From IMG/VR virus record IMGVR_UViG_3300042447_000691: 64,000 nucleotides of DNA; one strand, 5' to 3'. A program made the translations under genes and the position numbers. Numbering within the stretch: the stretch's first letter is position 1; the number at the start of each line of letters is the position of its first letter. Positions 27,280 through 59,614 of the stretch are shown piece after piece. Source of the stretch: a virus. The notes beneath the pieces were generated by a model that worked only from the letters and a program-made list of their open reading frames with translations, searched no databases and had not been told where the DNA came from.

Positions 27280-27534
27280 ATGGGAAAAGCAGCAAAGGCT
27301 CATAGAGCGAAAGTGGCGAAAAGAAACGTCAATGTTAAAGTACAAGAAAAGAGAATGCAAAAAGTTTGGCAAGAGGCTTTTGAAGAACAAATGAATGTTA
27401 TGAAAGAGAAATTTGCAGCAATGTCGGGCGATACGATGTCAGGATTAACAGGATTATTTGGAGATGAGCAAGAAGAAACAATACAGGAAGAATCCGAACC
27501 AGCAGAACCTATTTCAGGAGATCAAACCGTTTAA
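27280..27534 (+). CDS. hypothetical protein, basic N-terminus and acidic C-terminus
   Basis: MGKAAKAHRAKVAKRN...; A-rich start context. Confidence 0.6.
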   Translation: MGKAAKAHRAKVAKRNVNVKVQEKRMQKVWQEAFEEQMNVMKEKFAAMSGDTMSGLTGLFGDEQEETIQEESEPAEPISGDQTV

Positions 27535-27544
27535 TTATACAACA

Positions 27545-29878
27545 ATGACAAAAGAAATAGACTTTTCAAAGTTTGAAAACCCCAACATCCAAGTTGTGTG
27601 GGAAGATTACAATGAAAATTTTACTCAAGACAGGATCAAAAGTGTTAAACACTATTTTCAAAAAAAATATAACACAACTAATGTAAACGTCATAACAAAG
27701 GCTAAAGTTCAGAAAGAAGACGGAGAACAAACGGTAGATGTGTCTGTAAATATTATGGACACAAACTACCAAGTAGAACTACTTAAACAGTTTCTAACAA
27801 GTAAAAATTACGACAAACACTTGGATGAGATTTTGAATCATAATAAAATGGTTGAAAATAAAATGCAAGAAACTGAAACGGATAGTGCGGTGTTTAAAAA
27901 GTGGTATATTAAAAATATTGAGTTTTCAAACTTCCTTTCATATGGAGAGAACCAAGTCGTTGATTTTGAAAAAAGTAATGGACTAACGGTTATTGAGTCT
28001 AATCCACCAAACTTCGGTGGTAAAACTGTATTGTCAGTGGATCTATTATTGTTTTTATTCTTTAACGAAACAACAAAAACAACAAAAGCGGAAGAGATAT
28101 TTAACCGGTTTACAGATAAAGATAAAGTGACTGTTAAGGGTGAAATCATCATCGACGGTGAGGAATACATCATCGTAAGAAACATTGAAAGAAAGTTATC
28201 CAAAAAAGGTGAATGGAACGTTAAAACGGAATTGGACTTCTTTAAAAAAATGGCTGATGGAACCTTACAAAACTTTACCGGAGAACAAAGAAGAGAAACG
28301 GAAAAATTCATTAAAGATTCGATCGGAACAAAAGAAGACTTCTTAATGACAATCCTTACAACGGCAACGAACCTTGAAGAATTAATAGACTCCAAACCAA
28401 CGGCAAGAGGTCAGGTACTTTCGCGTTTTATGGGTCTTGATTTTTTAAGAAGAAAAGAGGACGCAGCAAAGTCAATCTATTCTGATTTTTCAAAATCAAT
28501 GTTATCAAACATCTATAACACAGAACAGTTAAAAACGGATAACGAAAATAACGAAACAAAAATCACCGAATTGAGAGATAATCTCAAAACGTACAAAGAT
28601 GATCTTAAAACCATCGAAGAAAACATCGTAAAGGGTAAGGACTATCGAGACGATATGTTAAGAAAAAAACATACCGACATTGATGTTGAAATAAGTAGAT
28701 TAAACCCAAGTCAAGTTAGACAAGAAATTGAAAATCACGAGTACCAGGTTGAACAAACAAAAACGAAACTTAATGAACTTAACGTCGTTGAACCAAAAGA
28801 GTACTACAAAGAGGATGAGCACGATAAGGTAAAAGAAGAATATAATGTTGCGTTTAAAGAGAAAGTTCAGTTGGATACAAAAATCTCTGAGATTGAGAAA
28901 TTAAGATCTTCTGTTAAAGACGGGATCAAATGTGAGCACTGCGGAATTGACTTGATGAATGCTAGTATTACACAACAAAAAATATCTGAACTTGATGGTT
29001 ATATTAGTCAAAAAGGGGAAAAAGAGGGGTTAATGACTGTTTTAACAAGCAAAGAAAAAAGATTTGTTGATATTAAAAGACAATTTGATGAGTATGAGAA
29101 AAACAAACTAATCAAAGAAAAACACGAAGCAACAATTGAGAACTATCAGTTGAAAATAGGTGGACTTCAGACAAAACTTACAGAATATGATAAGATGTTG
29201 GATAAAATCAAGGCTAACGAACATATCGATACGATGTTGATCAAAGCGAATATGAGGTTGGAAGATTTGGATAGACAAAAAACTCAAAAACAAAATCAGA
29301 TTAATAATGATGAGTATTCAATTAAAACGTTAGAAGAAAAAATCAAAACAAACCTGAATAACATTATTAAAATTGCTGAAGAACAAGAAAAAGAAAAAAT
29401 ATATAAGATTTTCTTGGAAGCATACGGTAAAAACGGAATCTCAAAGATCATTATGAAAACAATGATTCCACTTATTAATTCGGAACTTCAAAGATTGATG
29501 GAGGAGAGTGCGTATTTCAAACTACAAATACAAATCAACGATAAAAATGAGGTTGAGTTTAATATGATTGATAACGGAACGGGTATTGAAAAACTTATGG
29601 CTTCGGGATCAGGGTATGAAAGAACAATAGCGTCATTGGCATTAAGATCGGTATTAAGTAAGATATGTAGTTTGCCAAAACCAAATATTGTAGTTTTTGA
29701 TGAAATATTTGGTAAGATCTCAAATGATAATTTGGAGATGGTGCATAGTTTCTTTGTTGCCATTAAAGACTTCTTTCCTACCATTTTACTTATCAGTCAT
29801 AACCCGATAGTGAATAATTGGGGGGATAACACAATAAAAATCGTAAAAGAGGACAATATTTCAAAAGTTTTTCAGTAA
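27545..29878 (+). CDS. sbcC: SbcC/Rad50/gp46-like SMC ATPase with N-terminal extension
   Basis: IKNIEFSNFLSYG, Walker A NFGGKT, CEHC zinc hook, signature SGSGYE, Walker B VVFDEIFG, H-loop LISH. Start refined to ATG 27545. Confidence 0.9.
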   Translation: MTKEIDFSKFENPNIQVVWEDYNENFTQDRIKSVKHYFQKKYNTTNVNVITKAKVQKEDGEQTVDVSVNIMDTNYQVELLKQFLTSKNYDKHLDEILNHNKMVENKMQETETDSAVFKKWYIKNIEFSNFLSYGENQVVDFEKSNGLTVIESNPPNFGGKTVLSVDLLLFLFFNETTKTTKAEEIFNRFTDKDKVTVKGEIIIDGEEYIIVRNIERKLSKKGEWNVKTELDFFKKMADGTLQNFTGEQRRETEKFIKDSIGTKEDFLMTILTTATNLEELIDSKPTARGQVLSRFMGLDFLRRKEDAAKSIYSDFSKSMLSNIYNTEQLKTDNENNETKITELRDNLKTYKDDLKTIEENIVKGKDYRDDMLRKKHTDIDVEISRLNPSQVRQEIENHEYQVEQTKTKLNELNVVEPKEYYKEDEHDKVKEEYNVAFKEKVQLDTKISEIEKLRSSVKDGIKCEHCGIDLMNASITQQKISELDGYISQKGEKEGLMTVLTSKEKRFVDIKRQFDEYEKNKLIKEKHEATIENYQLKIGGLQTKLTEYDKMLDKIKANEHIDTMLIKANMRLEDLDRQKTQKQNQINNDEYSIKTLEEKIKTNLNNIIKIAEEQEKEKIYKIFLEAYGKNGISKIIMKTMIPLINSELQRLMEESAYFKLQIQINDKNEVEFNMIDNGTGIEKLMASGSGYERTIASLALRSVLSKICSLPKPNIVVFDEIFGKISNDNLEMVHSFFVAIKDFFPTILLISHNPIVNNWGDNTIKIVKEDNISKVFQ

Positions 29879-41599: not shown

Positions 41600-42224
41600 T
41601 TTTTAATCTATACAACCTTTTTTTATCAAACCCCTTTTCCGTTAAGACATCATATATCCACTTCCTTTGTGTTGTGGATATGTCTTTTACAAACATACCA
41701 TCAACCCTATTATTATTGAAAAAATAGTATTGAGCACACTCTAAAAACCTAACCGACTCTGATTTATCCTTCAATGAGAAAACACTTAAATCCGAATCCT
41801 TCTGAACACAGATTTTATTATTCAACGTGAATATATTCTTCAATTCGTTACTTCCACAGTAGTTCTTTATAAACTGATTAAAGGTTATTTTTTTTTGAGT
41901 TTGCCAATCAAATATCCTCTCCTCTTGTTTATAATTTTTTAAATCTAAAAAAACGTAATCAGTGTTTTCAATGGTTGCTGGCACATTCCTACCAAAAACA
42001 TCTTTTATAAAAATACTTTTTTGTATGTTAGTTGTGTTAGTGAGTAAACCTAACGTATAGGTCGTTTCCTCGGCGTTTTCTATTAGTTTATCAAAAATAA
42101 TATTTTCTTGATCCTTAATTAATTGATTAAATTTCTCTAATGCTCGTTTTTCTATAGAATAACGTTTGATAATTTTTCTTTTTTTTTTATTCTTAAACAG
42201 AACGATAATATAGTTACTACTCAT
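41580..42224 (-). CDS. hypothetical protein
   Basis: 214-aa ORF with Lys-rich phage-like composition and no long ORF on the opposite strand. Confidence 0.6.
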   Translation of the reverse strand: MSSNYIIVLFKNKKKRKIIKRYSIEKRALEKFNQLIKDQENIIFDKLIENAEETTYTLGLLTNTTNIQKSIFIKDVFGRNVPATIENTDYVFLDLKNYKQEERIFDWQTQKKITFNQFIKNYCGSNELKNIFTLNNKICVQKDSDLSVFSLKDKSESVRFLECAQYYFFNNNRVDGMFVKDISTTQRKWIYDVLTEKGFDKKRLYRLKTTFSKR

Positions 42225-43218
42225 GAAAAATTATTATGAAATTTTAGGTGTTGACGAAACGGCAACACAAGACGATATAAAAAAGGCATATAGACAATTA
42301 AGTAAACAATATCACCCAGATGTAAACCCTGAAGGTGAAGAGCGATTTAAAGAAATTAGTGTTGCTTATGAAAACATCGGAGAAGAGAATAAAAGGGCTC
42401 ACTACGATAATGTTAGAAAAAATCCCTTTAATGGAATGGGTGGTGGTAATAACTTTGATTTTGATTCTATTTTTGAACAAATGATGGGTGGTAGATCCAA
42501 TCACAGACCTAAAGCTCCTGATAAAGTATTAAGTTTTGATATTAGTCCTGTTGATTCCTATTTTGGATCAAAAAAAGAGATTAGATTACAAAATAACGTT
42601 GCTTGTGAGCCGTGTAATGGTAATGGTGGAGATAAAAAAATATGTGATACATGTAGAGGGAATGGGTTTGTGATACAAACGTTCGGCACCAATATGTTTA
42701 GACAACAAGTCCAAGTACAATGCCCTACATGTAACGGTCAGGGGTCAATATTAATCACTCCTTGTAGAATTTGTAGAGGGTTAGGTGTTGAACCTAAACT
42801 TGAAGCTTTCATGGTAAACTTACCACAAAATACGGATAATGGTCATTTTATGAGATTAAGAGGTAAGGGAGATTACTACCCTAATATAAAACAAAGAGGT
42901 GACCTCATAATTAAGGTTAACGTCGTAAACGATAATGACTTTGAAAAAATGGGAGACGATTTGGTACACAAAGTAAGATTATCACCGATGGATTTAATTT
43001 TAAATGAGAAACTCCAAATTAACCATCCAGATGGTGCGATATCGATTAATATACCGGATAAAATAGATACTGACATACCGCTAAGAATACCTAATAAGGG
43101 GTATATGTCTGAAAACGGTAGAGGACACTTCTACATAAAAATGTCAGTAGTAAAAGATAAGTCCCTTAATGATGAAGTTAAGAAAAAGATAAAATTAGCG
43201 TTAGACCATACCAACTAA
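42223..43218 (+). CDS. dnaJ: DnaJ co-chaperone (J domain, Zn finger, C-terminal domain)
   Basis: YYEILGV...YHPDVN (HPD), four CxxCxGxG repeats, GDLIIKV. Confidence 0.92.
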   Translation: MKNYYEILGVDETATQDDIKKAYRQLSKQYHPDVNPEGEERFKEISVAYENIGEENKRAHYDNVRKNPFNGMGGGNNFDFDSIFEQMMGGRSNHRPKAPDKVLSFDISPVDSYFGSKKEIRLQNNVACEPCNGNGGDKKICDTCRGNGFVIQTFGTNMFRQQVQVQCPTCNGQGSILITPCRICRGLGVEPKLEAFMVNLPQNTDNGHFMRLRGKGDYYPNIKQRGDLIIKVNVVNDNDFEKMGDDLVHKVRLSPMDLILNEKLQINHPDGAISINIPDKIDTDIPLRIPNKGYMSENGRGHFYIKMSVVKDKSLNDEVKKKIKLALDHTN

Positions 43219-43418: not shown

Positions 43419-44258
43419 ATGTTAAGTTATATCGGAGGAAAAAGTAAGATAGGAAAGTGGATAGTCCCTTTCTATGATAAAAATATGGAAACATATGTTG
43501 AAACATTTGGAGGTATGTTTTGGTGTTTTTATAATATGGACTTGAAAGAGTACCCCAACCTAAAGAAAGTTGTTTACAACGACTTTAATCCACTAAATTA
43601 CAACCTATTTAAGTGTATTCAAAACCCAACGGAGTTATTACAGGCAATTAATGCAATACCATGCCAACAATTTGGTGAGGTACCAACCCCACCATTATAT
43701 AAAGAACAATTTATCAGGTTCCAAGCTGAAATATTTGCTGAAGGTTTCAGCGTAGAACCTGGTGATTACGAAGTTGCTGCCAAATACGTATATATCCTAA
43801 CTCAAGTATTCAGTGGATCAAAACCTGAGACAAGTTCTTTTATTGACCTTAAAGGTAAATACAAATCAAAGTATTTGACGTTTAGAGATAAACTATCAAA
43901 ACCTGATTGGGTTGAACATTTTTTAAGAATAACACACGTCGAAAATATGGACTTCGATGACGTAATCAAAAAATATGATTCACCAACAACATACATTTAT
44001 TTAGATCCTCCTTATTGGAAAACTGAGAACTATTATTCAAACCACGATTTTGATAGAGAAGATCACGAAAGGTTAGCAAATGTCTTAAAGACTGTTAAAG
44101 GTAAATTCTCATTATCCTACTATGATTTTCCAATTTTATCTGAGTGGTTTCCTAAAAATGAATACACTTGGGTTAAAAAAGAATTCGCTAAAGCTGCTGC
44201 CGCGAAGAAGGGAACCAAACAAAATATGGGTGAAGAGTTATTGATTATGAATTATTAA
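43419..44258 (+). CDS. Dam-like (D12 class) N6-adenine DNA methyltransferase
   Basis: LSYIGGKS, YVETFGG, VVYNDFN, IYLDPPY, GKFSLSY. Confidence 0.88.
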   Translation: MLSYIGGKSKIGKWIVPFYDKNMETYVETFGGMFWCFYNMDLKEYPNLKKVVYNDFNPLNYNLFKCIQNPTELLQAINAIPCQQFGEVPTPPLYKEQFIRFQAEIFAEGFSVEPGDYEVAAKYVYILTQVFSGSKPETSSFIDLKGKYKSKYLTFRDKLSKPDWVEHFLRITHVENMDFDDVIKKYDSPTTYIYLDPPYWKTENYYSNHDFDREDHERLANVLKTVKGKFSLSYYDFPILSEWFPKNEYTWVKKEFAKAAAAKKGTKQNMGEELLIMNY

Positions 44259-47717: not shown

Positions 47718-48071
47718 ATGGAAGAAAGAAAAGAATTTAAAATACCTGAACACATTATTGATATTTTTAAAAAAAAATATGAGTTGTATCCTTGTTTTAT
47801 AAAAACCAGAAATGTTGTTGAAGGTGGTATTGATGTCCTAACAAAAAAAAACAAAATAGTTTGGTTTGATAAAATTTTTGATGGTAAAAATACACACATA
47901 AAAGGGGCTTTAATTGACTATAGTGTGAGTAATAAAATTATGATTTATGTTAAAGCAAAAGAGAGTGAGAAGGTATATGAATTAGTGATACTATCGAGCG
48001 ATGAAAGTGGTGTCAGTGTTGATTTGTTATTGAAAGGTTTAAATAAATATTATACAATAGATTTTATATGA
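47718..48071 (+). CDS. hypothetical protein
   Basis: 117-aa ORF. Confidence 0.55.
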   Translation: MEERKEFKIPEHIIDIFKKKYELYPCFIKTRNVVEGGIDVLTKKNKIVWFDKIFDGKNTHIKGALIDYSVSNKIMIYVKAKESEKVYELVILSSDESGVSVDLLLKGLNKYYTIDFI

Positions 48072-48352
48072 AAGTTGCAGTTGTTTACACTATGAAAGGT
48101 TGTCCGTTTTGTAGTATGATTAAAGAAGAATTAGAAAAGGAAAATGTGTCATTTTTAGAGAGAGACATTTACGAATATGAGGAAGAATACGACGAGTTTT
48201 CAAAAGTCACCGAAAATGAGTATGTTCCAGCACTTATGTTATTAACTTTAGATGATGAGGATAACCCAACTAACGTAAAACTTTTAGCCCCCGATAGAGA
48301 TTTTAACGATATCTATGAGGGCGTAGAGATTGTAAAACAGTATTTGTTATAA
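48068..48352 (+). CDS. glutaredoxin/thioredoxin-fold protein
   Basis: VYTMKGCPFC...YVPAL. Confidence 0.85.
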   Translation: MKVAVVYTMKGCPFCSMIKEELEKENVSFLERDIYEYEEEYDEFSKVTENEYVPALMLLTLDDEDNPTNVKLLAPDRDFNDIYEGVEIVKQYLL

Positions 48353-49237
48353 TAAAACCATTTCACTAACCACATCAAGTTTTTCCCACAACAATCGATC
48401 ACTCGGAGATAGAACCTCAACAGACGAATCGTAGTTAGAAATATCAAAACTATTAGACAAGTCTTTATGATTGAAAGGGAACACATCCAATATAAGCGAC
48501 CTCAACCAATTGGTTCTAACGGTGTGGTTGTCGTTCAATATCTCAAATTCAGAGTTTAGATTATCTATTTCACACGGCCTGTATTTACTATATAGTTTCA
48601 TGTTTAACTCTTTTGAAATCCCTAATGAGAATACATTATATGTGATATAACGTAATAATATATGGTATAATTTTTCAGTATCGTTTGATAAACCATAATA
48701 ACGATCTGAAACATAAGTTTCCTGACTAAGGTCTGTTTTTATAATTTTGTAATTAGGGAATTTATTAAAAATGATTTCTTTAACCTTCTCTACGTTAGAA
48801 TCCAAACAATCAAAATATAGATAGTTATTTGTTTTCTCCAATTTAATGTTAAAGTATAGTTTATCTTTAACGTGAGAATTAACAAATTCTTGAATATCTA
48901 ACTTTTCTTTTTCGTATAATTTATCTGAATGATACTCAATATCCATATTTCTATTGTCAAATGAGGTGTTATAATTAATCACATCAATCACTCGAATGAT
49001 GTTAAGTAAATCTTCATCATCGTAATTTTTTAAAAATTCTATTAAAATATTAGTTAAGTTTAAAACAACATCAGATGTTGTTCTACCACGTACAATAAAA
49101 AAATTCCTAATGTTTACTACTGTTATTTCAGTATTCGCATTAGGAAATGTTTTATTTATTTCATTCACAATAAGACTTGCAAAAATATTACATAGATTTT
49201 TACCATCTAAGAAGTTGTAAACCTCAATCGTTCCCAT
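48347..49237 (-). CDS. S-adenosylmethionine synthetase (MetK)-fold protein lacking catalytic motifs
   Basis: KNLCNIFASLIVNEI..FPNANTEITVV..FFIVRGRTTS aligns by eye to the MetK N-domain DKICDQISDAILDAI..DPNARVACETL..LVLVAGEITT; SDRYYG ~ VDTYGG. No GHPDK or GAGDQG. Confidence 0.55.
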   Translation of the reverse strand: MGTIEVYNFLDGKNLCNIFASLIVNEINKTFPNANTEITVVNIRNFFIVRGRTTSDVVLNLTNILIEFLKNYDDEDLLNIIRVIDVINYNTSFDNRNMDIEYHSDKLYEKEKLDIQEFVNSHVKDKLYFNIKLEKTNNYLYFDCLDSNVEKVKEIIFNKFPNYKIIKTDLSQETYVSDRYYGLSNDTEKLYHILLRYITYNVFSLGISKELNMKLYSKYRPCEIDNLNSEFEILNDNHTVRTNWLRSLILDVFPFNHKDLSNSFDISNYDSSVEVLSPSDRLLWEKLDVVSEMVLL

Positions 49238-49301: not shown

Positions 49302-49436
49302 TTATTTTTTGTTATAATATTTTTCTACAACTTTTTGCACACCATTTTTAACTGACTCGGTTTGTTGAGCCTGTTGAGTTTGTACGGTCTGTACTTGTTG
49401 TTGACCATTGTTTTTGTTTTTACATCCACACGACAT
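49302..49436 (-). CDS. 44-aa Gln-rich micro-protein (MSCGCK...)
   Basis: Not in the track. Minus-strand TATTTAT at 49468-49474. Confidence 0.55.
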   Translation of the reverse strand: MSCGCKNKNNGQQQVQTVQTQQAQQTESVKNGVQKVVEKYYNKK

Positions 49437-49522
49437 AGTTATAATTTTTAATTAGTTTATTATATATATAAATATTTATAATTTACGATTATTCATTTGT
49501 AAATATAAAGTATTTATAAAAT

Positions 49523-52138: not shown

Positions 52139-52789
52139 ATGAGATATCTATATTTTTGTCTAATATTATTTTTGACATCCTGTATTGAAATAATTGAAGA
52201 CCTAAAGTTTAATTTGGATGGATCAGGCACCTTTAAATATGTTATAAATCTTAGTGGTAGTAAAACCAAAGTAACATCCATACTCGCTTTAGATAGTTTA
52301 CACGGAGAAAAGGTACCAAAGGTATCAGACATTAGAACTAAGATCGGAGAGTTTAAAAGAACCTTACAAGAGCAAGAAGGTATTAGTAACGTATTAATAA
52401 CGGAAGACTATACCAACTTTATCATTAAATTTCAGTGTGATTTTAAAAGTGTTGAGGATTTAGAACAAGCACTAAAAAACTCAATTAAAAAACTATACCA
52501 AAACAACTATTACGAATATGATTGGGTTTCTTTTAAAGGTAAGGTATTAACAAGAAAAACACCTATTTTTTATTTAGATGATATTAGGAAGTTTGGTGAT
52601 AAGGATATTGATAAACTAAAGACCGGAACCTATACTTCAGTGACTAGGTTTCCAACTAAAATAGATACGTTTGAGAATAAAAATTCGTTAAGATCAAAAA
52701 GTAATATGGCTTTAATGATTAAAACAACACCTGATCTACTTTTAAATGACCAAACCATATTAAACAATAAAATAATATTAAAAAAATGA
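52139..52789 (+). CDS. lipoprotein (Bacteroidota-like)
   Basis: MRYLYFCLILFLTS|C lipobox followed by IEIIEDLKFNLDGSGTFKY. Start refined to ATG 52139. Confidence 0.7.
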   Translation: MRYLYFCLILFLTSCIEIIEDLKFNLDGSGTFKYVINLSGSKTKVTSILALDSLHGEKVPKVSDIRTKIGEFKRTLQEQEGISNVLITEDYTNFIIKFQCDFKSVEDLEQALKNSIKKLYQNNYYEYDWVSFKGKVLTRKTPIFYLDDIRKFGDKDIDKLKTGTYTSVTRFPTKIDTFENKNSLRSKSNMALMIKTTPDLLLNDQTILNNKIILKK

Positions 52790-53637
52790 TAGAAACAGGA
52801 AAAATAATAAATGGGGATTGTATTGAGGTAATGAAAACCTTACCGGAAGGGTCTGTGGACTTAATTTGCACATCGCCGCCATATGGCGTGGGTATTGCTT
52901 ATGACACACACGATGATGATGTGGAGTTTGAAGACTACCTTGTGTTTGCAAGAAATTGGTTAACTGAATCGTATAACGTATTGAAAGATGATGGGAGAAT
53001 TGCGTTAAACATACCCTATGAAATCAATAGACAAAAGAAAGGAGGGAGAATTTTCTTTGTTTCAGAGATGTATCAAATAATGAAAGAAATTGGTTTTGGA
53101 TTCTTTGGTATTGTTGATTTGGAAGAACAATCACCACATAGAAGTAAAACCACAGCATGGGGATCTTGGATGAGTCCATCCAGCCCGTATATCTATAACC
53201 CGAAAGAGTGTGTTATTTTGGCCTACAAAAAACTACACATTAAAAAGGTGAAAGGAGAACCACAATGGAAAGGGGTTCCTACTGACATAGAACAAGAAGA
53301 TGGGACATTTAAGAAAAAAGTAGTATACGAGGAACAAGACAAGAAAGAATTTATGGAGTTAGTCTTTGGCCAGTGGAACTATTTTGCAGATACAAAGAGT
53401 TTAACTAAGGCTACTTTTTCTATGGACATACCAACGAAAGCAATAAAAATATTATCCTACAAGAATGATATAATTTTGGATCCATTCGCTGGTAGCGGAA
53501 CTAGTTTAGTCGCTGCGGAAATCTTGGGTCGTAGATGGATCGGAATAGAACTATCACCAAACTACACTGAAGTGGCAAAAACAAGGGTGGAGTATTTTAA
53601 AACACTACAAGAAGTATCGGAAGAAAACCAACAGTAA
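52786..53637 (+). CDS. beta-class N4-cytosine/N6-adenine DNA methyltransferase
   Basis: IINGDC, TSPPY (motif IV) precedes ILDPFAGSGTS (motif I), WIGIEL. Confidence 0.88.
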   Translation: MIETGKIINGDCIEVMKTLPEGSVDLICTSPPYGVGIAYDTHDDDVEFEDYLVFARNWLTESYNVLKDDGRIALNIPYEINRQKKGGRIFFVSEMYQIMKEIGFGFFGIVDLEEQSPHRSKTTAWGSWMSPSSPYIYNPKECVILAYKKLHIKKVKGEPQWKGVPTDIEQEDGTFKKKVVYEEQDKKEFMELVFGQWNYFADTKSLTKATFSMDIPTKAIKILSYKNDIILDPFAGSGTSLVAAEILGRRWIGIELSPNYTEVAKTRVEYFKTLQEVSEENQQ

Positions 53638-53675: not shown

Positions 53676-55598
53676 ATGAGAAGAATAATAAATGAATCAG
53701 GTATCCGGGATATTAATAATATTGCTAAAAGATACAAAAAAGCAAAAATATACTTTCACCAAGATTTGGACGGTGTAACAACCGCATTGGCGATGAAAAA
53801 CTATCTTGAACAACACGGTATTGAAGTTGTCGATGCTGAAGTAATACAATACGGATCTAAAGAATTCGCCATTAAAAAACCTGAAGGTGAAGGTGACGTT
53901 ATGCCGGTTCTTGTTGATTTTGCTCACGGAAAACCAATGTTTGTTATTCATACCGACCACCACGATACACAAGCTGGTGTTGAAAAAGACACGGCAACAA
54001 GTTTCAAATCATCAAGATCAAACGTGGAAACCATATCACAAGTCGTTTCACCAAAAGAGATTTTCCCATCGGATGATATAATGTTAATATCAACGATCGA
54101 TTCGGCAAACTTCGCGGTAAATCAAATAACACCAGAAATGGTTATGAATTACCTATACAAATACGATAAAGATAGTTCACTAAAGAGAAATAAAATGTTA
54201 ATGGGGTTAGTTGTAAATAAACTATTATTAGCATATAAAAACAAACCAAGATTTTTGGAAAACCTTGTGTTAAACTCACAACCATCCCTTTTAAGTATTT
54301 TAAATAATATTAAAAAAGAAGCGGTTGAAAAGGGGTATGTCGAACCTGAACAACTAACAAAAAACAAGGAAAATTATATACAAAGTAGAAAAGAAAAGGG
54401 TGTAGAAACTCTTGGTAATATTATCTCTCAATATGGATTTGGTAGCACAACAAAGTCAGGTGCTTATGATAGATACACACCATTTAAAAACAATCCAGAT
54501 TCCGATTTCCTTGTAACGGGAATGCCGATGGGTATGGTTCAAGCATCCTGCAACCCATTTAAAGAAGATAGAGCACTCAAAGGGGTAAATTTAGGTGAAA
54601 TAAAAGATGAGGTATTAGATGTATTTAGAAAAGAATTTGAGGGGTTAAAAATAACCTTTGGTATTATAAAAAGGGTTGCGGAACAAGAAGCTGATTTTAG
54701 TTCAGTTGGTTTTACCTTTAAAGATATGGAGGCGATCTACGGTGAAAGCCCATCTTATAAAATAGACGGAGGAGAAAACTTAAAAGAGATTTTAAACAAC
54801 ATATCCTCCAAACTTTATAGGGGGTTATCTCAAAAACAAAAAGAATTATTAAATAAAGTTTCTGTTAATGGATTTGACGTTATAAGAGCAAACTCAGGAG
54901 GACACAAATGTATAACCAACATTTCAGGTATAAATTTTTTATATAGGGATAATAAAGGAGGTAAAACAGATAAAATTCCTAGTGAGTTATTACCAATCGC
55001 TAATTATTCAGGAAAAAATTCATTTTTAAACGACATTAAATCAAAATTGTTAACTTACGGTAGATTGTCAGACAAACAAATTGAGATGGCAATGAATCAG
55101 ATTAAAAAGGAAGGGGGATCACCATCACCATCACCATCAACTGAAACAGTTGCTTCACAATCAAACAAAACTTACGTAGATGTTGTAAAACAAATCCAAC
55201 AGGAATTTGTGAATATTTTAAATAATAAAATAAAATCACAATCTGAAGGTATAACTGAAAGTTTTAACAAGGGAGAAAATGTGGAGTCATTATTGAAAAG
55301 TCACGTTAAAGGACAAAAAGTTCTTTCTGAACGAGAATGGAAATTTATTATGTCAAAACTTAACGCAGTTACTGATAACAGAGGACAGTGGGATCATCCG
55401 GGTAGATGTACCATGATAGAAAGTAATAGAATAACTATGGAGAATGTTAATTTTCCTTTAGTTGGTATAGACAACACTGGTCACTTAAAATTAATGTTAC
55501 CTGAAAACGATTATAAATTCCCAGGAAAAAGAGTTTTTGAAATACCATTAAAAGGTAAATATAAAAATTTAGGTATAAAATTACTAAAAACGATTTAA
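53676..55598 (+). CDS. DHH-family phosphoesterase with extra C-terminal modules
   Basis: YFHQDLDG, LVDF, HTDHH, SGGHK; C-terminal WDHPG...ITMENVNFPLVG..NTGH...YKFPG module. Leader MRRIINE. Confidence 0.75.
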   Translation: MRRIINESGIRDINNIAKRYKKAKIYFHQDLDGVTTALAMKNYLEQHGIEVVDAEVIQYGSKEFAIKKPEGEGDVMPVLVDFAHGKPMFVIHTDHHDTQAGVEKDTATSFKSSRSNVETISQVVSPKEIFPSDDIMLISTIDSANFAVNQITPEMVMNYLYKYDKDSSLKRNKMLMGLVVNKLLLAYKNKPRFLENLVLNSQPSLLSILNNIKKEAVEKGYVEPEQLTKNKENYIQSRKEKGVETLGNIISQYGFGSTTKSGAYDRYTPFKNNPDSDFLVTGMPMGMVQASCNPFKEDRALKGVNLGEIKDEVLDVFRKEFEGLKITFGIIKRVAEQEADFSSVGFTFKDMEAIYGESPSYKIDGGENLKEILNNISSKLYRGLSQKQKELLNKVSVNGFDVIRANSGGHKCITNISGINFLYRDNKGGKTDKIPSELLPIANYSGKNSFLNDIKSKLLTYGRLSDKQIEMAMNQIKKEGGSPSPSPSTETVASQSNKTYVDVVKQIQQEFVNILNNKIKSQSEGITESFNKGENVESLLKSHVKGQKVLSEREWKFIMSKLNAVTDNRGQWDHPGRCTMIESNRITMENVNFPLVGIDNTGHLKLMLPENDYKFPGKRVFEIPLKGKYKNLGIKLLKTI

Positions 55599-58252: not shown

Positions 58253-59614
58253 ATGGATCTAAAAAGAATTATTAGAAAGGTAATAAAAGAGGCTCACGAA
58301 AAGAGGCAAATTAACGAAGCCACATGGGTACCTAAAAATACTGGAAGTAAATATGGTATGAGACTTCACCCCGTACAGAAAGTTTATAAACTTCATGCTG
58401 GTCAGGATTATCCTGAACCACAAGGTACTGCTATTATTGTAATTAAACCAGGTAAGGTATTAAGATCTGAATTTGGTAAAGCCAATGGTAATTTTGTTGA
58501 AATTTTACATAATGATGGTTCGGTTACGATGTATTTACATCTATCTAAGAGAATGGTAAGTGCTGGTGACATTGTAAATAGTGGTAAAGTAATTGGGTTG
58601 GTTGGATCTACAGGTCTTTCTACGGGGCCACATCTACATTTTGTTTATAAAAAGGATGGTAAAATGATAAATCCTGAAACTTATGCTCCACAGGTATTTA
58701 GATTTAGTAATAGTTCGTCACCAGACGTTAGTGAGTTTGTTAAACCGGTTGCAAAAGGTAAAACAAAAGAATATATGGTGTATGCCATCTCAAGTGGAAA
58801 AGTGCATAACCCAACCGGTAATTATATTGGTAGTTTAGGTACATTAATATCAAAAAGAAATGGTGAACCGATATATGGATCACAAAGAAAACGAGATGGT
58901 AGAATATTTTTATTCACATTTGATAACAGTAATGATGTATTATACATTGAAATGTCTAATGAGGACTTTTTAAATTATGATGTTAAAAAACAAAGAATAG
59001 AAGGGACGTGGGAAAAATTAACGGAAACTTCTGTTGTTAGAGATTCTAAAAGTAAAAACCAAGAAAAATCTTCTGAAACAAAAAATAAAGAAACTCAAAA
59101 ATCAGGAGATTTAAAAGACGATAGACTTTCAGAACCAATTTTAAAGGCAATTAATGACTTAATAAAAAAAGGTGTTAACATTACAAAAAAAAATATAGAT
59201 AAAGAATTTGAACAGGAAGGGTCAACAAGACCTGATTTGGGAAAAAATAAAATTGCAGAAAAGAAAATACTAGAACTTATAAATGATTGTAATAAAAAAT
59301 TTGGTATAAGTGGAGGGGTAGTCTCCGGATATAGAAGTTATGATGATCAAGTGAATAATTTTGCAAAAAAAGTTTTAAATAATAAAAGAACAATAGATAA
59401 TGTTCAAGCATCAAACACATTACCTGGTTTTAGTCAACACCACACAGGAAAGGCGTTTGATATATATTCAACAGAAACTAGTTGGTGGGATGCGAAACCT
59501 AAGATTAAAAAATGGGTTGCGGATAACGCTAAAGATTACGGTTTTGAAATAACATATAAAACACAAGGACCATTAAGGGTTGCTGAACCTTGGCATTTAA
59601 ATTATATAGGATGA
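58253..59614 (+). CDS. dual peptidoglycan hydrolase: M23 endopeptidase + M15B (VanY-like) peptidase, with leader
   Basis: HAGQD...YLHL...STGPHLHF (M23); SGYRSY..Q, SQHHTGKAFD, EPWH (M15B); leader MDLKRIIRKVIKE. Confidence 0.85.
   Translation: MDLKRIIRKVIKEAHEKRQINEATWVPKNTGSKYGMRLHPVQKVYKLHAGQDYPEPQGTAIIVIKPGKVLRSEFGKANGNFVEILHNDGSVTMYLHLSKRMVSAGDIVNSGKVIGLVGSTGLSTGPHLHFVYKKDGKMINPETYAPQVFRFSNSSSPDVSEFVKPVAKGKTKEYMVYAISSGKVHNPTGNYIGSLGTLISKRNGEPIYGSQRKRDGRIFLFTFDNSNDVLYIEMSNEDFLNYDVKKQRIEGTWEKLTETSVVRDSKSKNQEKSSETKNKETQKSGDLKDDRLSEPILKAINDLIKKGVNITKKNIDKEFEQEGSTRPDLGKNKIAEKKILELINDCNKKFGISGGVVSGYRSYDDQVNNFAKKVLNNKRTIDNVQASNTLPGFSQHHTGKAFDIYSTETSWWDAKPKIKKWVADNAKDYGFEITYKTQGPLRVAEPWHLNYIG

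What the first reader, a model, noticed from the sequence alone, without database searches (positions are those of the whole stretch)
48347..49237. Catalytically dead MetK mimic: possible anti-defence or SAM-pool manipulator
By eye the protein keeps the MetK scaffold (N-domain helix-strand pattern; SDRYYG...LLRYITYNV ~ VDTYGG...AARYVAKNI) but lacks GHPDK, GAGDQG and the catalytic Lys motifs. Known: MetK is oligomeric with active sites at subunit interfaces; phage T3 SAM lyase both cleaves SAM and binds and inhibits host MetK to blunt SAM-dependent defences (type I R-M, BREX). Inference: a pseudo-subunit could poison or retune host MetK, or sequester SAM.
Basis: inference. Interest (0 to 1): 0.7.

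Follow-up and report, generated by a model that had tools for sequence, protein, structure and literature searches.

The report
Dead MetK look-alike in jumbo phages
An uncultured jumbo phage carries a well-conserved gene whose protein has the shape of the enzyme that makes the cell's methyl donor SAM, but it has lost nearly every part needed to make SAM, so it probably works by binding something, and what it binds is not yet known.

Summary
The 296-aa ORF at 48347-49237 (-) has no Pfam, PHROG, NCBIfam or PDB-sequence hit. Its confident AlphaFold2 model (pLDDT 89) superposes end to end on SAM synthetases (Z 21.9 over 291 residues; next fold Z 6.6). Diverse family profiles also reach MetK by sequence (hhalign E 8.8e-6). 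The GHPD histidine, gating loop, GAGDQG, the Arg229/Phe230 segment and the P-loop are substituted or deleted; only Asp238 is largely kept. It is not a SAM synthetase.

It is also not a decaying gene. dN/dS is about 0.1. It is single-copy in five 96-100% complete jumbo phages (281-321 kb) that have no real MetK. It is almost absent from 185,579 prokaryote species. It always lies antisense to its neighbours, in a small operon led by a conserved 44-aa Cys-x-Cys micro-protein.

SAM sequestration and SAM shut-off look unlikely, because the SAM contacts are gone and conserved SAM-dependent DNA methyltransferases flank the gene. My favoured model, at about 0.3, is a pseudo-subunit that docks on host MetK. 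A SAM-unrelated binding role is nearly as likely. An earlier first-reader note of this scan (e1-5709917, another genome) flagged a similar MetK-like pseudoenzyme; that note is unchecked.

The parts
48347..49237 (-). [quoted passage not shown]
   Evidence: ORF; AF2 model pLDDT 89; MAT fold Z 21.9 and Foldseek E 1.6e-15; hhalign to a MetK profile E 8.8e-6; dN/dS about 0.1
49302..49436 (-). Conserved 44-aa micro-protein, first gene of the antisense operon: M[GS]CGCK[NK][KN], a Gln/Thr-rich linker of variable length, then SVK.AV.KIVEKYYNKK
   Evidence: Found on the same strand directly upstream in 69 related viral loci, 41 distinct peptides; no family hit
49467..49480 (.). Perfect 14-nt palindrome TATAAATATTTATA in the divergent intergenic region, 30 nt upstream of the micro-ORF; conserved across loci; candidate bidirectional promoter or operator
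   Evidence: Single occurrence in the window; conserved in the alignment of upstream regions from 46 distinct loci; the half-site TATTTATA lies 4-19 nt before six + strand start codons, 6 of 24 hits against 3.7% background
49498..49503 (-). TTTACA, a -35-like hexamer 17 nt upstream of TATAAA (49475-49480), conserved as aTTTACAAATGA
   Evidence: Read from the sequence and the upstream alignment; function inferred, and the consensus scan was not above chance
48068..48352 (+). Glutaredoxin gene, convergent with the MetK-like gene, 6-nt tail-to-tail overlap; this arrangement is kept in all loci
   Evidence: PF00462 E 5e-11; '>METK* <Grx' in all 22 loci displayed, apart from two inserted ORFs in L080, down to 24% identity

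Best explanation
The gene encodes a catalytically inactive derivative of SAM synthetase (MetK/MAT). The three-module core of the fold is kept, but the loops and residues that bind ATP, methionine and metal ions have been deleted or replaced. It therefore acts by binding, not by making SAM. The best-conserved part is module 1, which corresponds to MetK's central domain. In real MetK the open sheet faces of two subunits pack against each other, and here that face of module 1 is hydrophobic and conserved, so it is probably buried in a protein-protein interface. My favoured full model is that the protein docks as a pseudo-subunit on the host's MetK, the only MetK in the infected cell, and changes SAM supply. 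Because the phage depends on its own SAM-dependent DNA methyltransferases, tuning or sustaining synthesis is more likely than shutting it off. It is made from a separate antisense operon together with a Cys-x-Cys micro-protein, which may be part of the complex. Shown: fold, homology, loss of catalytic residues, purifying selection, distribution, operon structure. Inferred: an interface on module 1. Speculative: host MetK as the partner, and the direction of the effect. Layered odds: not a SAM synthetase 0.9 or more; acts through a module-1 interface about 0.6; partner is host MetK about 0.3.
For: The fold equals MAT over 291 of 296 residues. Remote sequence homology is supported. Catalytic positions: His14 maps to D11 (variable), Asp16 to K13, Lys17 to N14, Glu42 to S/T39, Glu55 to a variable residue, Gln98 to N/G. 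Asp163 and Lys165 map to variable positions, and that whole module is absent from the short forms of about 210-255 aa. The gating loop with GAGDQG, Arg229/Phe230 and the P-loop are deleted. Only Asp238 is retained, as D178 (D/E in 45 of 55) (residue roles from PMC3853416 and PMC1282579). dN/dS is 0.10-0.14. The gene is single-copy in five 96-100% complete jumbo phages with no canonical MetK. Module-1 strands are hydrophobic on both faces and conserved, while the open faces of modules 2 and 3 are polar and variable. MAT active sites and the dimer contact lie between the facing sheets (PMC1282579, PMC3853416). Host MetK is a proven phage target (T3 SAMase-MetK complex, bioRxiv 10.1101/2023.02.27.530186; 8bb1). 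Dead paralogues of oligomeric SAM-pathway enzymes are known to act by heterodimerising (AdoMetDC prozyme, PMC6221367 abstract).
Against: There is no direct evidence for any partner, and complex modelling could not be run. Many inter-subunit contacts in real MetK come from the loops that are deleted here. Identity to MetK is only 10-14%. Short forms lack a whole module, so they would leave part of a MetK face uncovered. Outside module 1 the family diverges quickly (24-58% identity where the neighbouring Dam is 70-90%), although MetK is highly conserved. The conserved co-transcribed micro-protein and, in one sub-clade, a 327-aa partner fit a purely phage-internal complex equally well. The hydrophobic-face argument rests on sequence pattern plus DSSP, not on coordinates.
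Confidence: 0.33

Rival explanations
1. SAM-unrelated binding or scaffold protein. The MetK core has been reused as a stable three-module platform that forms a phage-internal complex (a homodimer, with the micro-protein and, in some lineages, the 327-aa partner), and its role has nothing to do with MetK or SAM.
For: A conserved operon with the micro-protein in 69 loci, plus an inserted partner family in the short-form sub-clade. Found in every complete genome examined, single-copy, with fixed synteny. Almost all ligand contacts are lost. One module is dispensable.
Against: It gives no reason why Asp238, the S177-G182 loop, N17, T53, D85 and Y89, which lie around the former methionine/ribose subsite by alignment, stay nearly invariant. 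No virion-targeting or membrane features were seen. The partner's fold gave no clue.
Confidence: 0.3
2. A remodelled ligand pocket. The protein still binds a small molecule, or catalyses a new reaction, at the old methionine/ribose subsite, using the family-invariant polar residues.
For: The near-invariant N17, T53, D85, Y89, S177, D/E178, G182 and K/R189 map to segments that line the Met/ribose site in MetK. Purifying selection is strong.
Against: The adenine-stacking Phe230, Asp163, Glu55, Gln98, the gating loop and all triphosphate and metal ligands are gone or variable. The open faces of modules 2 and 3, which would form the rest of a cleft, are variable. No fused catalytic domain was found (weak evidence).
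Confidence: 0.18
3. One reading: a dominant-negative subunit or SAM sponge that lowers SAM to disarm SAM-dependent defences (type I R-M, BREX), as T3 SAMase does. This is the less favoured direction of the host-MetK model, so its odds overlap with those of the best explanation.
For: MetK inhibition by a phage protein is an established anti-BREX route (10.1101/2023.02.27.530186). The gene diverges faster than its neighbours, as host-interface genes often do.
Against: Highly conserved SAM-dependent Dam-type and N4/N6 DNA methyltransferases sit in the same block of every locus long enough to show them, so the phage needs SAM. It is a gene in a fixed position, not an accessory gene in a variable hotspot. 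The SAM contacts are lost, which argues against a sponge.
Confidence: 0.1
4. A still-active, minimal SAM synthetase that supplies SAM to the phage methyltransferases.
For: MAT fold; methyltransferase genes nearby.
Against: All known SAM synthetases keep the GHPD signature with catalytic His14 (PMC1282579). Here the aligned position is D11 and varies across the family, and the loops for ATP and the gate are deleted.
Confidence: 0.02

Closest known systems
S-adenosylmethionine synthetase (MetK/MAT, EC 2.5.1.6; Pfam PF00438/PF02772/PF02773; e.g. 5h9u, 4le5, 6rjs, E. coli 1rg9)
   Same: [quoted passage not shown] There are collinear remote sequence matches, including LILDVFPF ~ LVREFFDLRP, LWEKLD ~ PWEKTD and SDRYYG ~ VDTYGG. 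The Asp238 equivalent is kept.
   Different: About 90 residues shorter, because the active-site loops are missing. There is no GHPD His14, no gating loop or GAGDQG, no Arg229/Phe230 and no P-loop. It scores below every Pfam threshold. It is viral only, and some members lack a whole module.
AdoMetDC 'prozyme' of trypanosomatids (a catalytically dead paralogue that heterodimerises with the active enzyme; PMC6221367)
   Same: A dead homologue of an oligomeric SAM-pathway enzyme. This is the working analogy for a pseudo-subunit.
   Different: A different fold and enzyme. The prozyme and its partner are encoded in one genome, whereas here the only possible active partner is the host's MetK. Heteromerisation is not shown here.
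Phage T3 SAMase (gene 0.3), which cleaves SAM and binds and inhibits host MetK (bioRxiv 10.1101/2023.02.27.530186; PDB 8bb1)
   Same: A phage protein for which host MetK and the SAM supply are the target. This is the precedent for the proposed target.
   Different: Unrelated fold: in 8bb1 the model matched chain A, whose length (378 aa) and alignment match E. coli MetK. SAMase is an enzyme and an accessory early gene. Nothing here indicates SAM cleavage.
MAT2B (MAT beta), the regulatory subunit of human MAT2A (e.g. 9qpo)
   Same: A non-catalytic protein that binds a MAT oligomer and tunes it. This is the functional analogy for 'retuning'.
   Different: From my own knowledge, MAT beta has a different fold and is not MetK-like. 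It is not a homologue.

Membership tests
SAM synthetase (MetK/MAT) | [quoted passage not shown] | tested here: met
   AF2 model pLDDT 89 with three such modules; Z 21.9 over 291 residues and Foldseek E 1.6e-15 to MATs
SAM synthetase (MetK/MAT) | Sequence membership: passes the Pfam models PF00438, PF02772 and PF02773 | tested here: not met
   P0001 has no Pfam hit even at E 10. Only sub-threshold hits occur among relatives (25 of 55 to PF02773, best E 1.3e-4). Homology is supported only at profile level.
SAM synthetase (MetK/MAT) | GHPD signature with catalytic His14, present in all known SAM synthetases (PMC1282579, PMC3853416) | tested here: not met
   The aligned tetrad is D11-G12-K13-N14. 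The His14 column reads D17, Y11, T5, S4, N4 and others in 55 members.
SAM synthetase (MetK/MAT) | Adenosine contacts Asp163, Arg229 and Phe230 (PMC1282579, PMC3853416) | tested here: not met
   Arg229/Phe230 fall in a 15-column deletion. The Asp163 column is variable or gapped. The whole module is absent in the short forms.
SAM synthetase (MetK/MAT) | Methionine contacts Glu55, Gln98 and Asp238 | tested here: not met
   The Glu55 column is K/I/F/R/V and others. Gln98 is N in 23 and G in 16 of 55. Only Asp238 is retained, as D178 (D 37, E 8 of 55).
SAM synthetase (MetK/MAT) | Flexible gating loop (Ile102) and the GAGDQG (Asp118) loop | tested here: not met
   A gap of about 40 columns in hhalign between Y89-N90 and the next strand. 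The local register is of low confidence, but the loop cannot be accommodated.
SAM synthetase (MetK/MAT) | Triphosphate and metal site (P-loop GGGAFSGKD, Lys165, Lys245, Lys265, Lys269, Asp16, Asp271; residue roles from my own knowledge of the E. coli structures) | tested here: not met
   HGGGAFSGKDPS is deleted. Asp16 maps to K13, and the Lys165 column is variable or gapped. The Asp271 column is E/D in 29 of 55.
SAM synthetase (MetK/MAT) | Dimer with the beta-sheet layers facing each other | not testable with these tools
   Only an indirect hint: module-1 strands are hydrophobic on both faces. No multimer modelling was available.
Prozyme-type pseudo-subunit | Catalytically dead homologue of an oligomeric enzyme | tested here: met
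Prozyme-type pseudo-subunit | Forms a hetero-oligomer with the active enzyme | not testable with these tools
   No complex prediction or experiment. No phage-encoded MetK exists in the clade, so the partner would have to be host MetK.
T3-type SAMase anti-defence protein | SAM lyase fold and activity | tested here: not met
   The model matches chain A of 8bb1, whose length (378 aa) and alignment match E. coli MetK, and other MATs only. Activity was not testable.

The most novel reading that the evidence does not exclude
This is a virus-encoded 'prozyme' for the host's SAM synthetase: a loop-pruned MetK pseudo-subunit, made with a Cys-x-Cys micro-protein, that inserts into host MetK oligomers and reprogrammes SAM production during jumbo-phage infection. 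It would be the first non-synthetase family in a fold long described as unique to one enzyme, and a new way for viruses to control the methyl-donor supply.
Probability: 0.3. Interest if true: 0.8.

Novelty: new variant of a known kind. Interest (0 to 1): 0.6.

Why it matters
The SAM synthetase fold has been described as an evolutionarily unique family in which every member keeps the GHPD catalytic signature (PMC1282579). This is a large family, with at least 349 clusters at 90% identity, that is viral, under strong purifying selection, and keeps the fold while discarding the chemistry. It gives a name and a testable hypothesis to a gene present in all five near-complete genomes examined from an uncultured jumbo-phage clade, which no database currently recognises. 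If it acts on host MetK, it would be a second route, mechanistically different from T3 SAMase, by which phages control SAM. That matters for SAM-dependent defences and for phage DNA methylation. Even if it does not, it is a clean natural example of an enzyme core reused after its loops were pruned away.

Tried and rejected
1. Direct family look-ups of the protein found nothing: Pfam, PHROGs, NCBIfam, PDB sequences and tblastn/megablast against 50,697 phage records.

2. The 36-sequence profile A1 found no MAT in the PDB, only a weak DUSP16 match, and hhalign of A1 against E. coli MetK alone was insignificant. The more diverse A2 profile was needed.

3. hhalign in global mode gave a degenerate alignment; local mode worked.

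4. The ESM Atlas holds only a poor model of this protein (pLDDT 0.40), so its hits are uninformative.

5. No longer or fused forms were found (weak evidence, as the tool itself says).

6. No canonical MetK was found in the window's record or in five complete relatives.

7. The co-oriented upstream partner (327-440 aa) in the divergent sub-clade has no Pfam, PHROG or PDB-sequence hit. It is not MetK-related, and it was not found in the part of the window's phage that is held. Its confident model (pLDDT 89) matches no solved fold (Foldseek E above 1; best Z 4.2), so it gives no functional clue.

8. The sigma-70 and terminator consensus scan around the gene was not above chance, and no terminator was found. 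TATAAATA is only marginally enriched in the window (24 against 15.2 +/- 3.7), so I make no claim about early or late timing.

9. In BFVD the only significant structural match is one uncharacterised 208-aa phage protein.

10. Literature searches found no report of a MetK-like pseudoenzyme in phages.

11. 'Relatives' and 'of' searches are not possible for virus records or W handles.

12. Two unpublished genomes (G007 and G024; loci L103 and L097) were left out of the MetK profile.

Full report
**What is there**

The ORF is as described: 48347..49237 on the minus strand, 296 aa, ATG start. The window is part of a 109-kb IMG/VR virus record estimated to be 37% complete. GC is about 30%, and nearly all genes are on the + strand. 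The protein has no hit in Pfam, PHROGs, NCBIfam or PDB sequences, and none in 50,697 phage records.

It is not an orphan. There are 349 clusters at 90% identity, nearly all 283-296 aa and all labelled 'hypothetical'. An exhaustive search found 92 representatives at 50% identity, including forms of about 230-250 aa that match in two stretches.

**Fold and homology**

An AlphaFold2 model built on a 36-sequence alignment is confident (pLDDT 89.3, pTM 0.86). [quoted passage not shown] Both structure searches return S-adenosylmethionine synthetases over the whole chain:
- VIA-align: Z 21.9 (rmsd 3.6, 291 of 296 residues) to 5h9u_C, Z 21.6 to 4le5_B, Z 15.5 to archaeal 7p82_A. The next, unrelated fold scores Z 6.6.
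- Foldseek: E 1.6e-15 to 6rjs, with 168 chains at E of 0.001 or better; every one of the rows displayed is a MAT.

This is homology, not convergence:
- A profile of 55 diverse members (A2) hits MAT chains in the PDB by sequence, at both the N- and C-terminal blocks (best E 3e-4, about 40 MAT entries).
- 25 of the 55 members weakly match PF02773 and 8 match PF00438.
- hhalign of A2 against a MetK profile gives probability 83%, E 8.8e-6, 273 collinear columns. The MetK profile was E. coli MetK plus 26 MetKs from published genomes.
- Matching landmarks include SDRYYG ~ VDTYGG, LLRYITYNV ~ AARYVAKNI, LILDVFPF ~ LVREFFDLRP and LWEKLD ~ PWEKTD.

**Is it catalytically dead?**

The yardstick comes from the literature:
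- All known SAM synthetases keep the GHPD signature with catalytic His14.
- Adenosine binds Asp163, Arg229 and Phe230.
- Methionine binds Gln98, Asp238 and Glu55.
- The two SAM molecules lie between the facing beta-layers of the dimer (PMC1282579).
- His14, Phe230, Asp163, Asp238 and the loop residue Ile102 are conserved even in archaeal MATs (PMC3853416).

Two independent alignments and column counts over 55 members give the following mapping:

| E. coli MetK residue | Phage family position | State |
|---|---|---|
| His14 | D11 | variable (D17, Y11, T5 and others) |
| Asp16 | K13 | lost |
| Lys17 | N14 | lost |
| Glu42 | S/T39 | lost |
| Glu55 | R52 | variable |
| Gln98 | N90 | N in 23, G in 16 of 55 |
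| Asp163, Lys165 | S121, K126 | variable or gapped |
| Asp238 | D178 | kept as D/E in 45 of 55 |
| Arg272 (aligned position) | K189 | kept as K/R in 53 of 55 |

The alignment gaps fall on the active-site loops:
- about 40 columns for the gating loop plus GAGDQG
- 15 columns for RFVIGGPMGDCGLTG, which carries Arg229 and Phe230
- 12 columns for HGGGAFSGKDPS

The local register in the middle module is of low confidence, but the loops cannot be fitted in.

The short forms delete the entire middle module, which is MetK's 'N-terminal domain' and carries Asp163, Lys165 and Phe230. The conclusion that this is not a SAM synthetase is an inference from sequence, but a strong one (0.9 or more).

**It is a maintained gene**

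Nei-Gojobori estimates for the closer pairs give dN/dS of 0.10-0.14 (WIN-L003: dS 0.95, dN 0.097; L004-L005: 0.36, 0.051; L004-L007: 0.57, 0.079).

Family-wide near-invariant residues are N17, I38, F46, G51, T53, D85, Y89, S177, G182, S247, D251 and F253. Median pI is about 5. No fused forms were found (weak evidence).

**Distribution**

- 95 confirmed hits in IMG/VR contigs, many of 200-320 kb.
- One hit among 185,579 prokaryote species genomes. It lies on a 6-kb contig of an 'Aquiluna' MAG that carries the same phage synteny, so it is probably a mis-binned phage fragment.
- Five 96-100% complete relatives (281-321 kb) each have exactly one copy and no canonical MetK. None was found in the window's record either.
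- In BFVD the only structural match is one uncharacterised 208-aa protein from an uncultured phage.
- The clade has no cultured member. A neighbouring 640-aa protein finds only uncultured 'huge phage' records.

**Context**

Across loci whose MetK-like proteins are only 24-58% identical, the order is fixed:

DnaJ < Dam (D12) < LRR protein < 93 aa < 555 aa < 117 aa < glutaredoxin < | > MetK-like | < 389 aa < 271 aa < 73 aa ... < N4/N6 methyltransferase

- The MetK-like gene always runs antisense to all its neighbours.
- It is always tail to tail with the glutaredoxin gene (6-nt overlap in the window, no terminator).
- It is the last gene of a small operon. A 44-aa ORF (49302-49436, minus strand) lies directly upstream on the same strand in 69 related loci. 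That ORF has a near-invariant M[GS]CGCK[NK][KN] start, a Gln/Thr-rich linker of variable length, and a near-invariant SVK.AV.KIVEKYYNKK end.
- In the sub-clade with short MetK-like proteins, a 327-440-aa acidic protein family is inserted between the two genes. That family has 734 homologues, all unannotated, and a confident model with no known fold.
- The divergent intergenic region is conserved. It holds aTTTACAAATGA, then 17 nt, then a perfect palindrome TATAAATATTTATA (49467-49480) 30 nt before the micro-ORF.
- The half-site TATTTATA lies 4-19 nt before six + strand start codons (6 of 24 occurrences against a 3.7% background). So the operon shares a signal with its neighbours, and I cannot assign it to an early class.

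**How it most likely works**

In the DSSP strands of module 1 (the central-domain equivalent), both faces are hydrophobic and conserved: F46-F47-I48-V49, V83-I84 with V86-I87, and I38/V40 with V41/I43. In modules 2 and 3 the strands alternate hydrophobic and polar, and the polar face is variable.

In real MAT the sheet faces of two subunits pack against each other, with the ligands between them (PMC1282579). I infer that the former catalytic cleft is no longer conserved, but that the open face of module 1 is buried in a protein-protein interface (about 0.6).

Candidate partners are another copy of itself, the co-transcribed micro-protein, and host MetK. I favour host MetK at about 0.3, for these reasons:
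- Dead homologues of oligomeric enzymes often act by heteromerising (AdoMetDC prozyme, PMC6221367).
- The phage has no MetK of its own.
- MetK is a proven phage target (T3 SAMase, 10.1101/2023.02.27.530186).

If that is right, tuning is more plausible than poisoning. The block contains two SAM-dependent DNA methyltransferases that are among its best-conserved genes (60-93% identity across the clade).

Against the host-MetK model:
- The deleted loops supply many MetK inter-subunit contacts.
- The short forms lack a module.
- The family diverges fast outside module 1.
- The conserved operon partners fit a phage-internal complex equally well (rival, 0.3).

A remodelled ligand pocket around N17, T53, D85, Y89, S177 and D178 remains possible (0.18). 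SAM sequestration is unlikely, because the SAM contacts are gone.

**Comparison with the known, and novelty**

The protein shares a fold and an ancestor with MetK/MAT, but it fails every catalytic membership feature tested, so it should not be filed as a SAM synthetase. It may work like a prozyme-type pseudo-subunit or a MAT-beta-like regulator; that is an analogy only.

The held literature contains no report of a MetK-fold pseudoenzyme, viral or otherwise, and no database model covers the family. I class it as a new variant of a known kind.

An earlier first-reader note of this scan (e1-5709917) flagged a similar protein in another genome. It is unchecked, so it is not independent evidence.

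**Host**

Only 1 of 50 ORFs has a Shine-Dalgarno-like motif.

**Unpublished data**

Genomes G007 and G024 were excluded from all analyses.

Noticed in passing
window 49302-49436 (-): A conserved 44-aa micro-protein with an M[GS]CGCK start, a Gln/Thr-rich linker of variable length and a KIVEKYYNKK end. It is better conserved than the MetK-like gene it precedes. The Cys-x-Cys start could bind a metal or be redox-active, and a glutaredoxin gene lies next to the operon.
   Followed up: partly
L072:4890-5870 (+), also L071, L078, L080 (two copies), L082: An acidic protein family of 327-440 aa is inserted between the micro-ORF and the short MetK-like gene in one sub-clade. It has 734 unannotated homologues. 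Its confident AF2 model (pLDDT 89) has no match in the PDB (best Z 4.2), so it may be a new fold.
   Followed up: partly
window 49467-49480: A perfect 14-nt palindrome TATAAATATTTATA in the divergent intergenic region, conserved across the clade. Its half-site TATTTATA sits 4-19 nt before the start codons at 581, 14674, 18784, 21628, 30464 and 49523 (6 of 24 hits against a 3.7% background).
   Followed up: partly
P0145, P0149, P0154-P0156, P0168, P0197-P0203; L069-L082: Natural two-module forms (about 210-255 aa) of the MetK-like protein, with the whole middle module deleted. The more distant ones carry SEFP[HY]G in place of SDRYYG.
   Followed up: partly
window 48347-48352: The MetK-like gene and the glutaredoxin gene overlap tail to tail by 6 nt with no terminator between them. 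This arrangement holds across the clade, so their transcripts probably overlap in antisense.
   Followed up: no
whole window: Only 1 of 50 + strand ORFs of 100 aa or more has an AGGA, GGAG or GAGG motif at -20 to -5. Translation initiation is essentially free of Shine-Dalgarno sites, as in Bacteroidota.
   Followed up: partly
L083 (CAZGNP010000036.1, 5967 bp): The only 'bacterial genome' hit is a short contig binned into an Aquiluna MAG that carries the full phage synteny (MetK-like, Grx, 117 aa, 555 aa, LRR, Dam). It is probably a mis-binned phage fragment.
   Followed up: partly
L071:4058-4645 (+): A GIY-YIG homing endonuclease is inserted in the divergent intergenic region upstream of the antisense operon in one relative.
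   Followed up: no
window 42223-43218, 43419-44258, 52786-53637, 27458-29878, 58253-59614: Other annotated genes: a full-length DnaJ (J domain, CXXCXGXG, C-terminal domain), a Dam-type D12 methyltransferase, an N4/N6 methyltransferase, an SbcC-like protein, and a 453-aa protein with a metallo-endopeptidase or endolysin-like domain.
   Followed up: no
window 53676-55598 (+): A 640-aa protein whose only relatives among 50,697 phage records are uncultured 'huge phage' genomes of 635-735 kb (LR745206, LR756502, LR756501/3).
   Followed up: no
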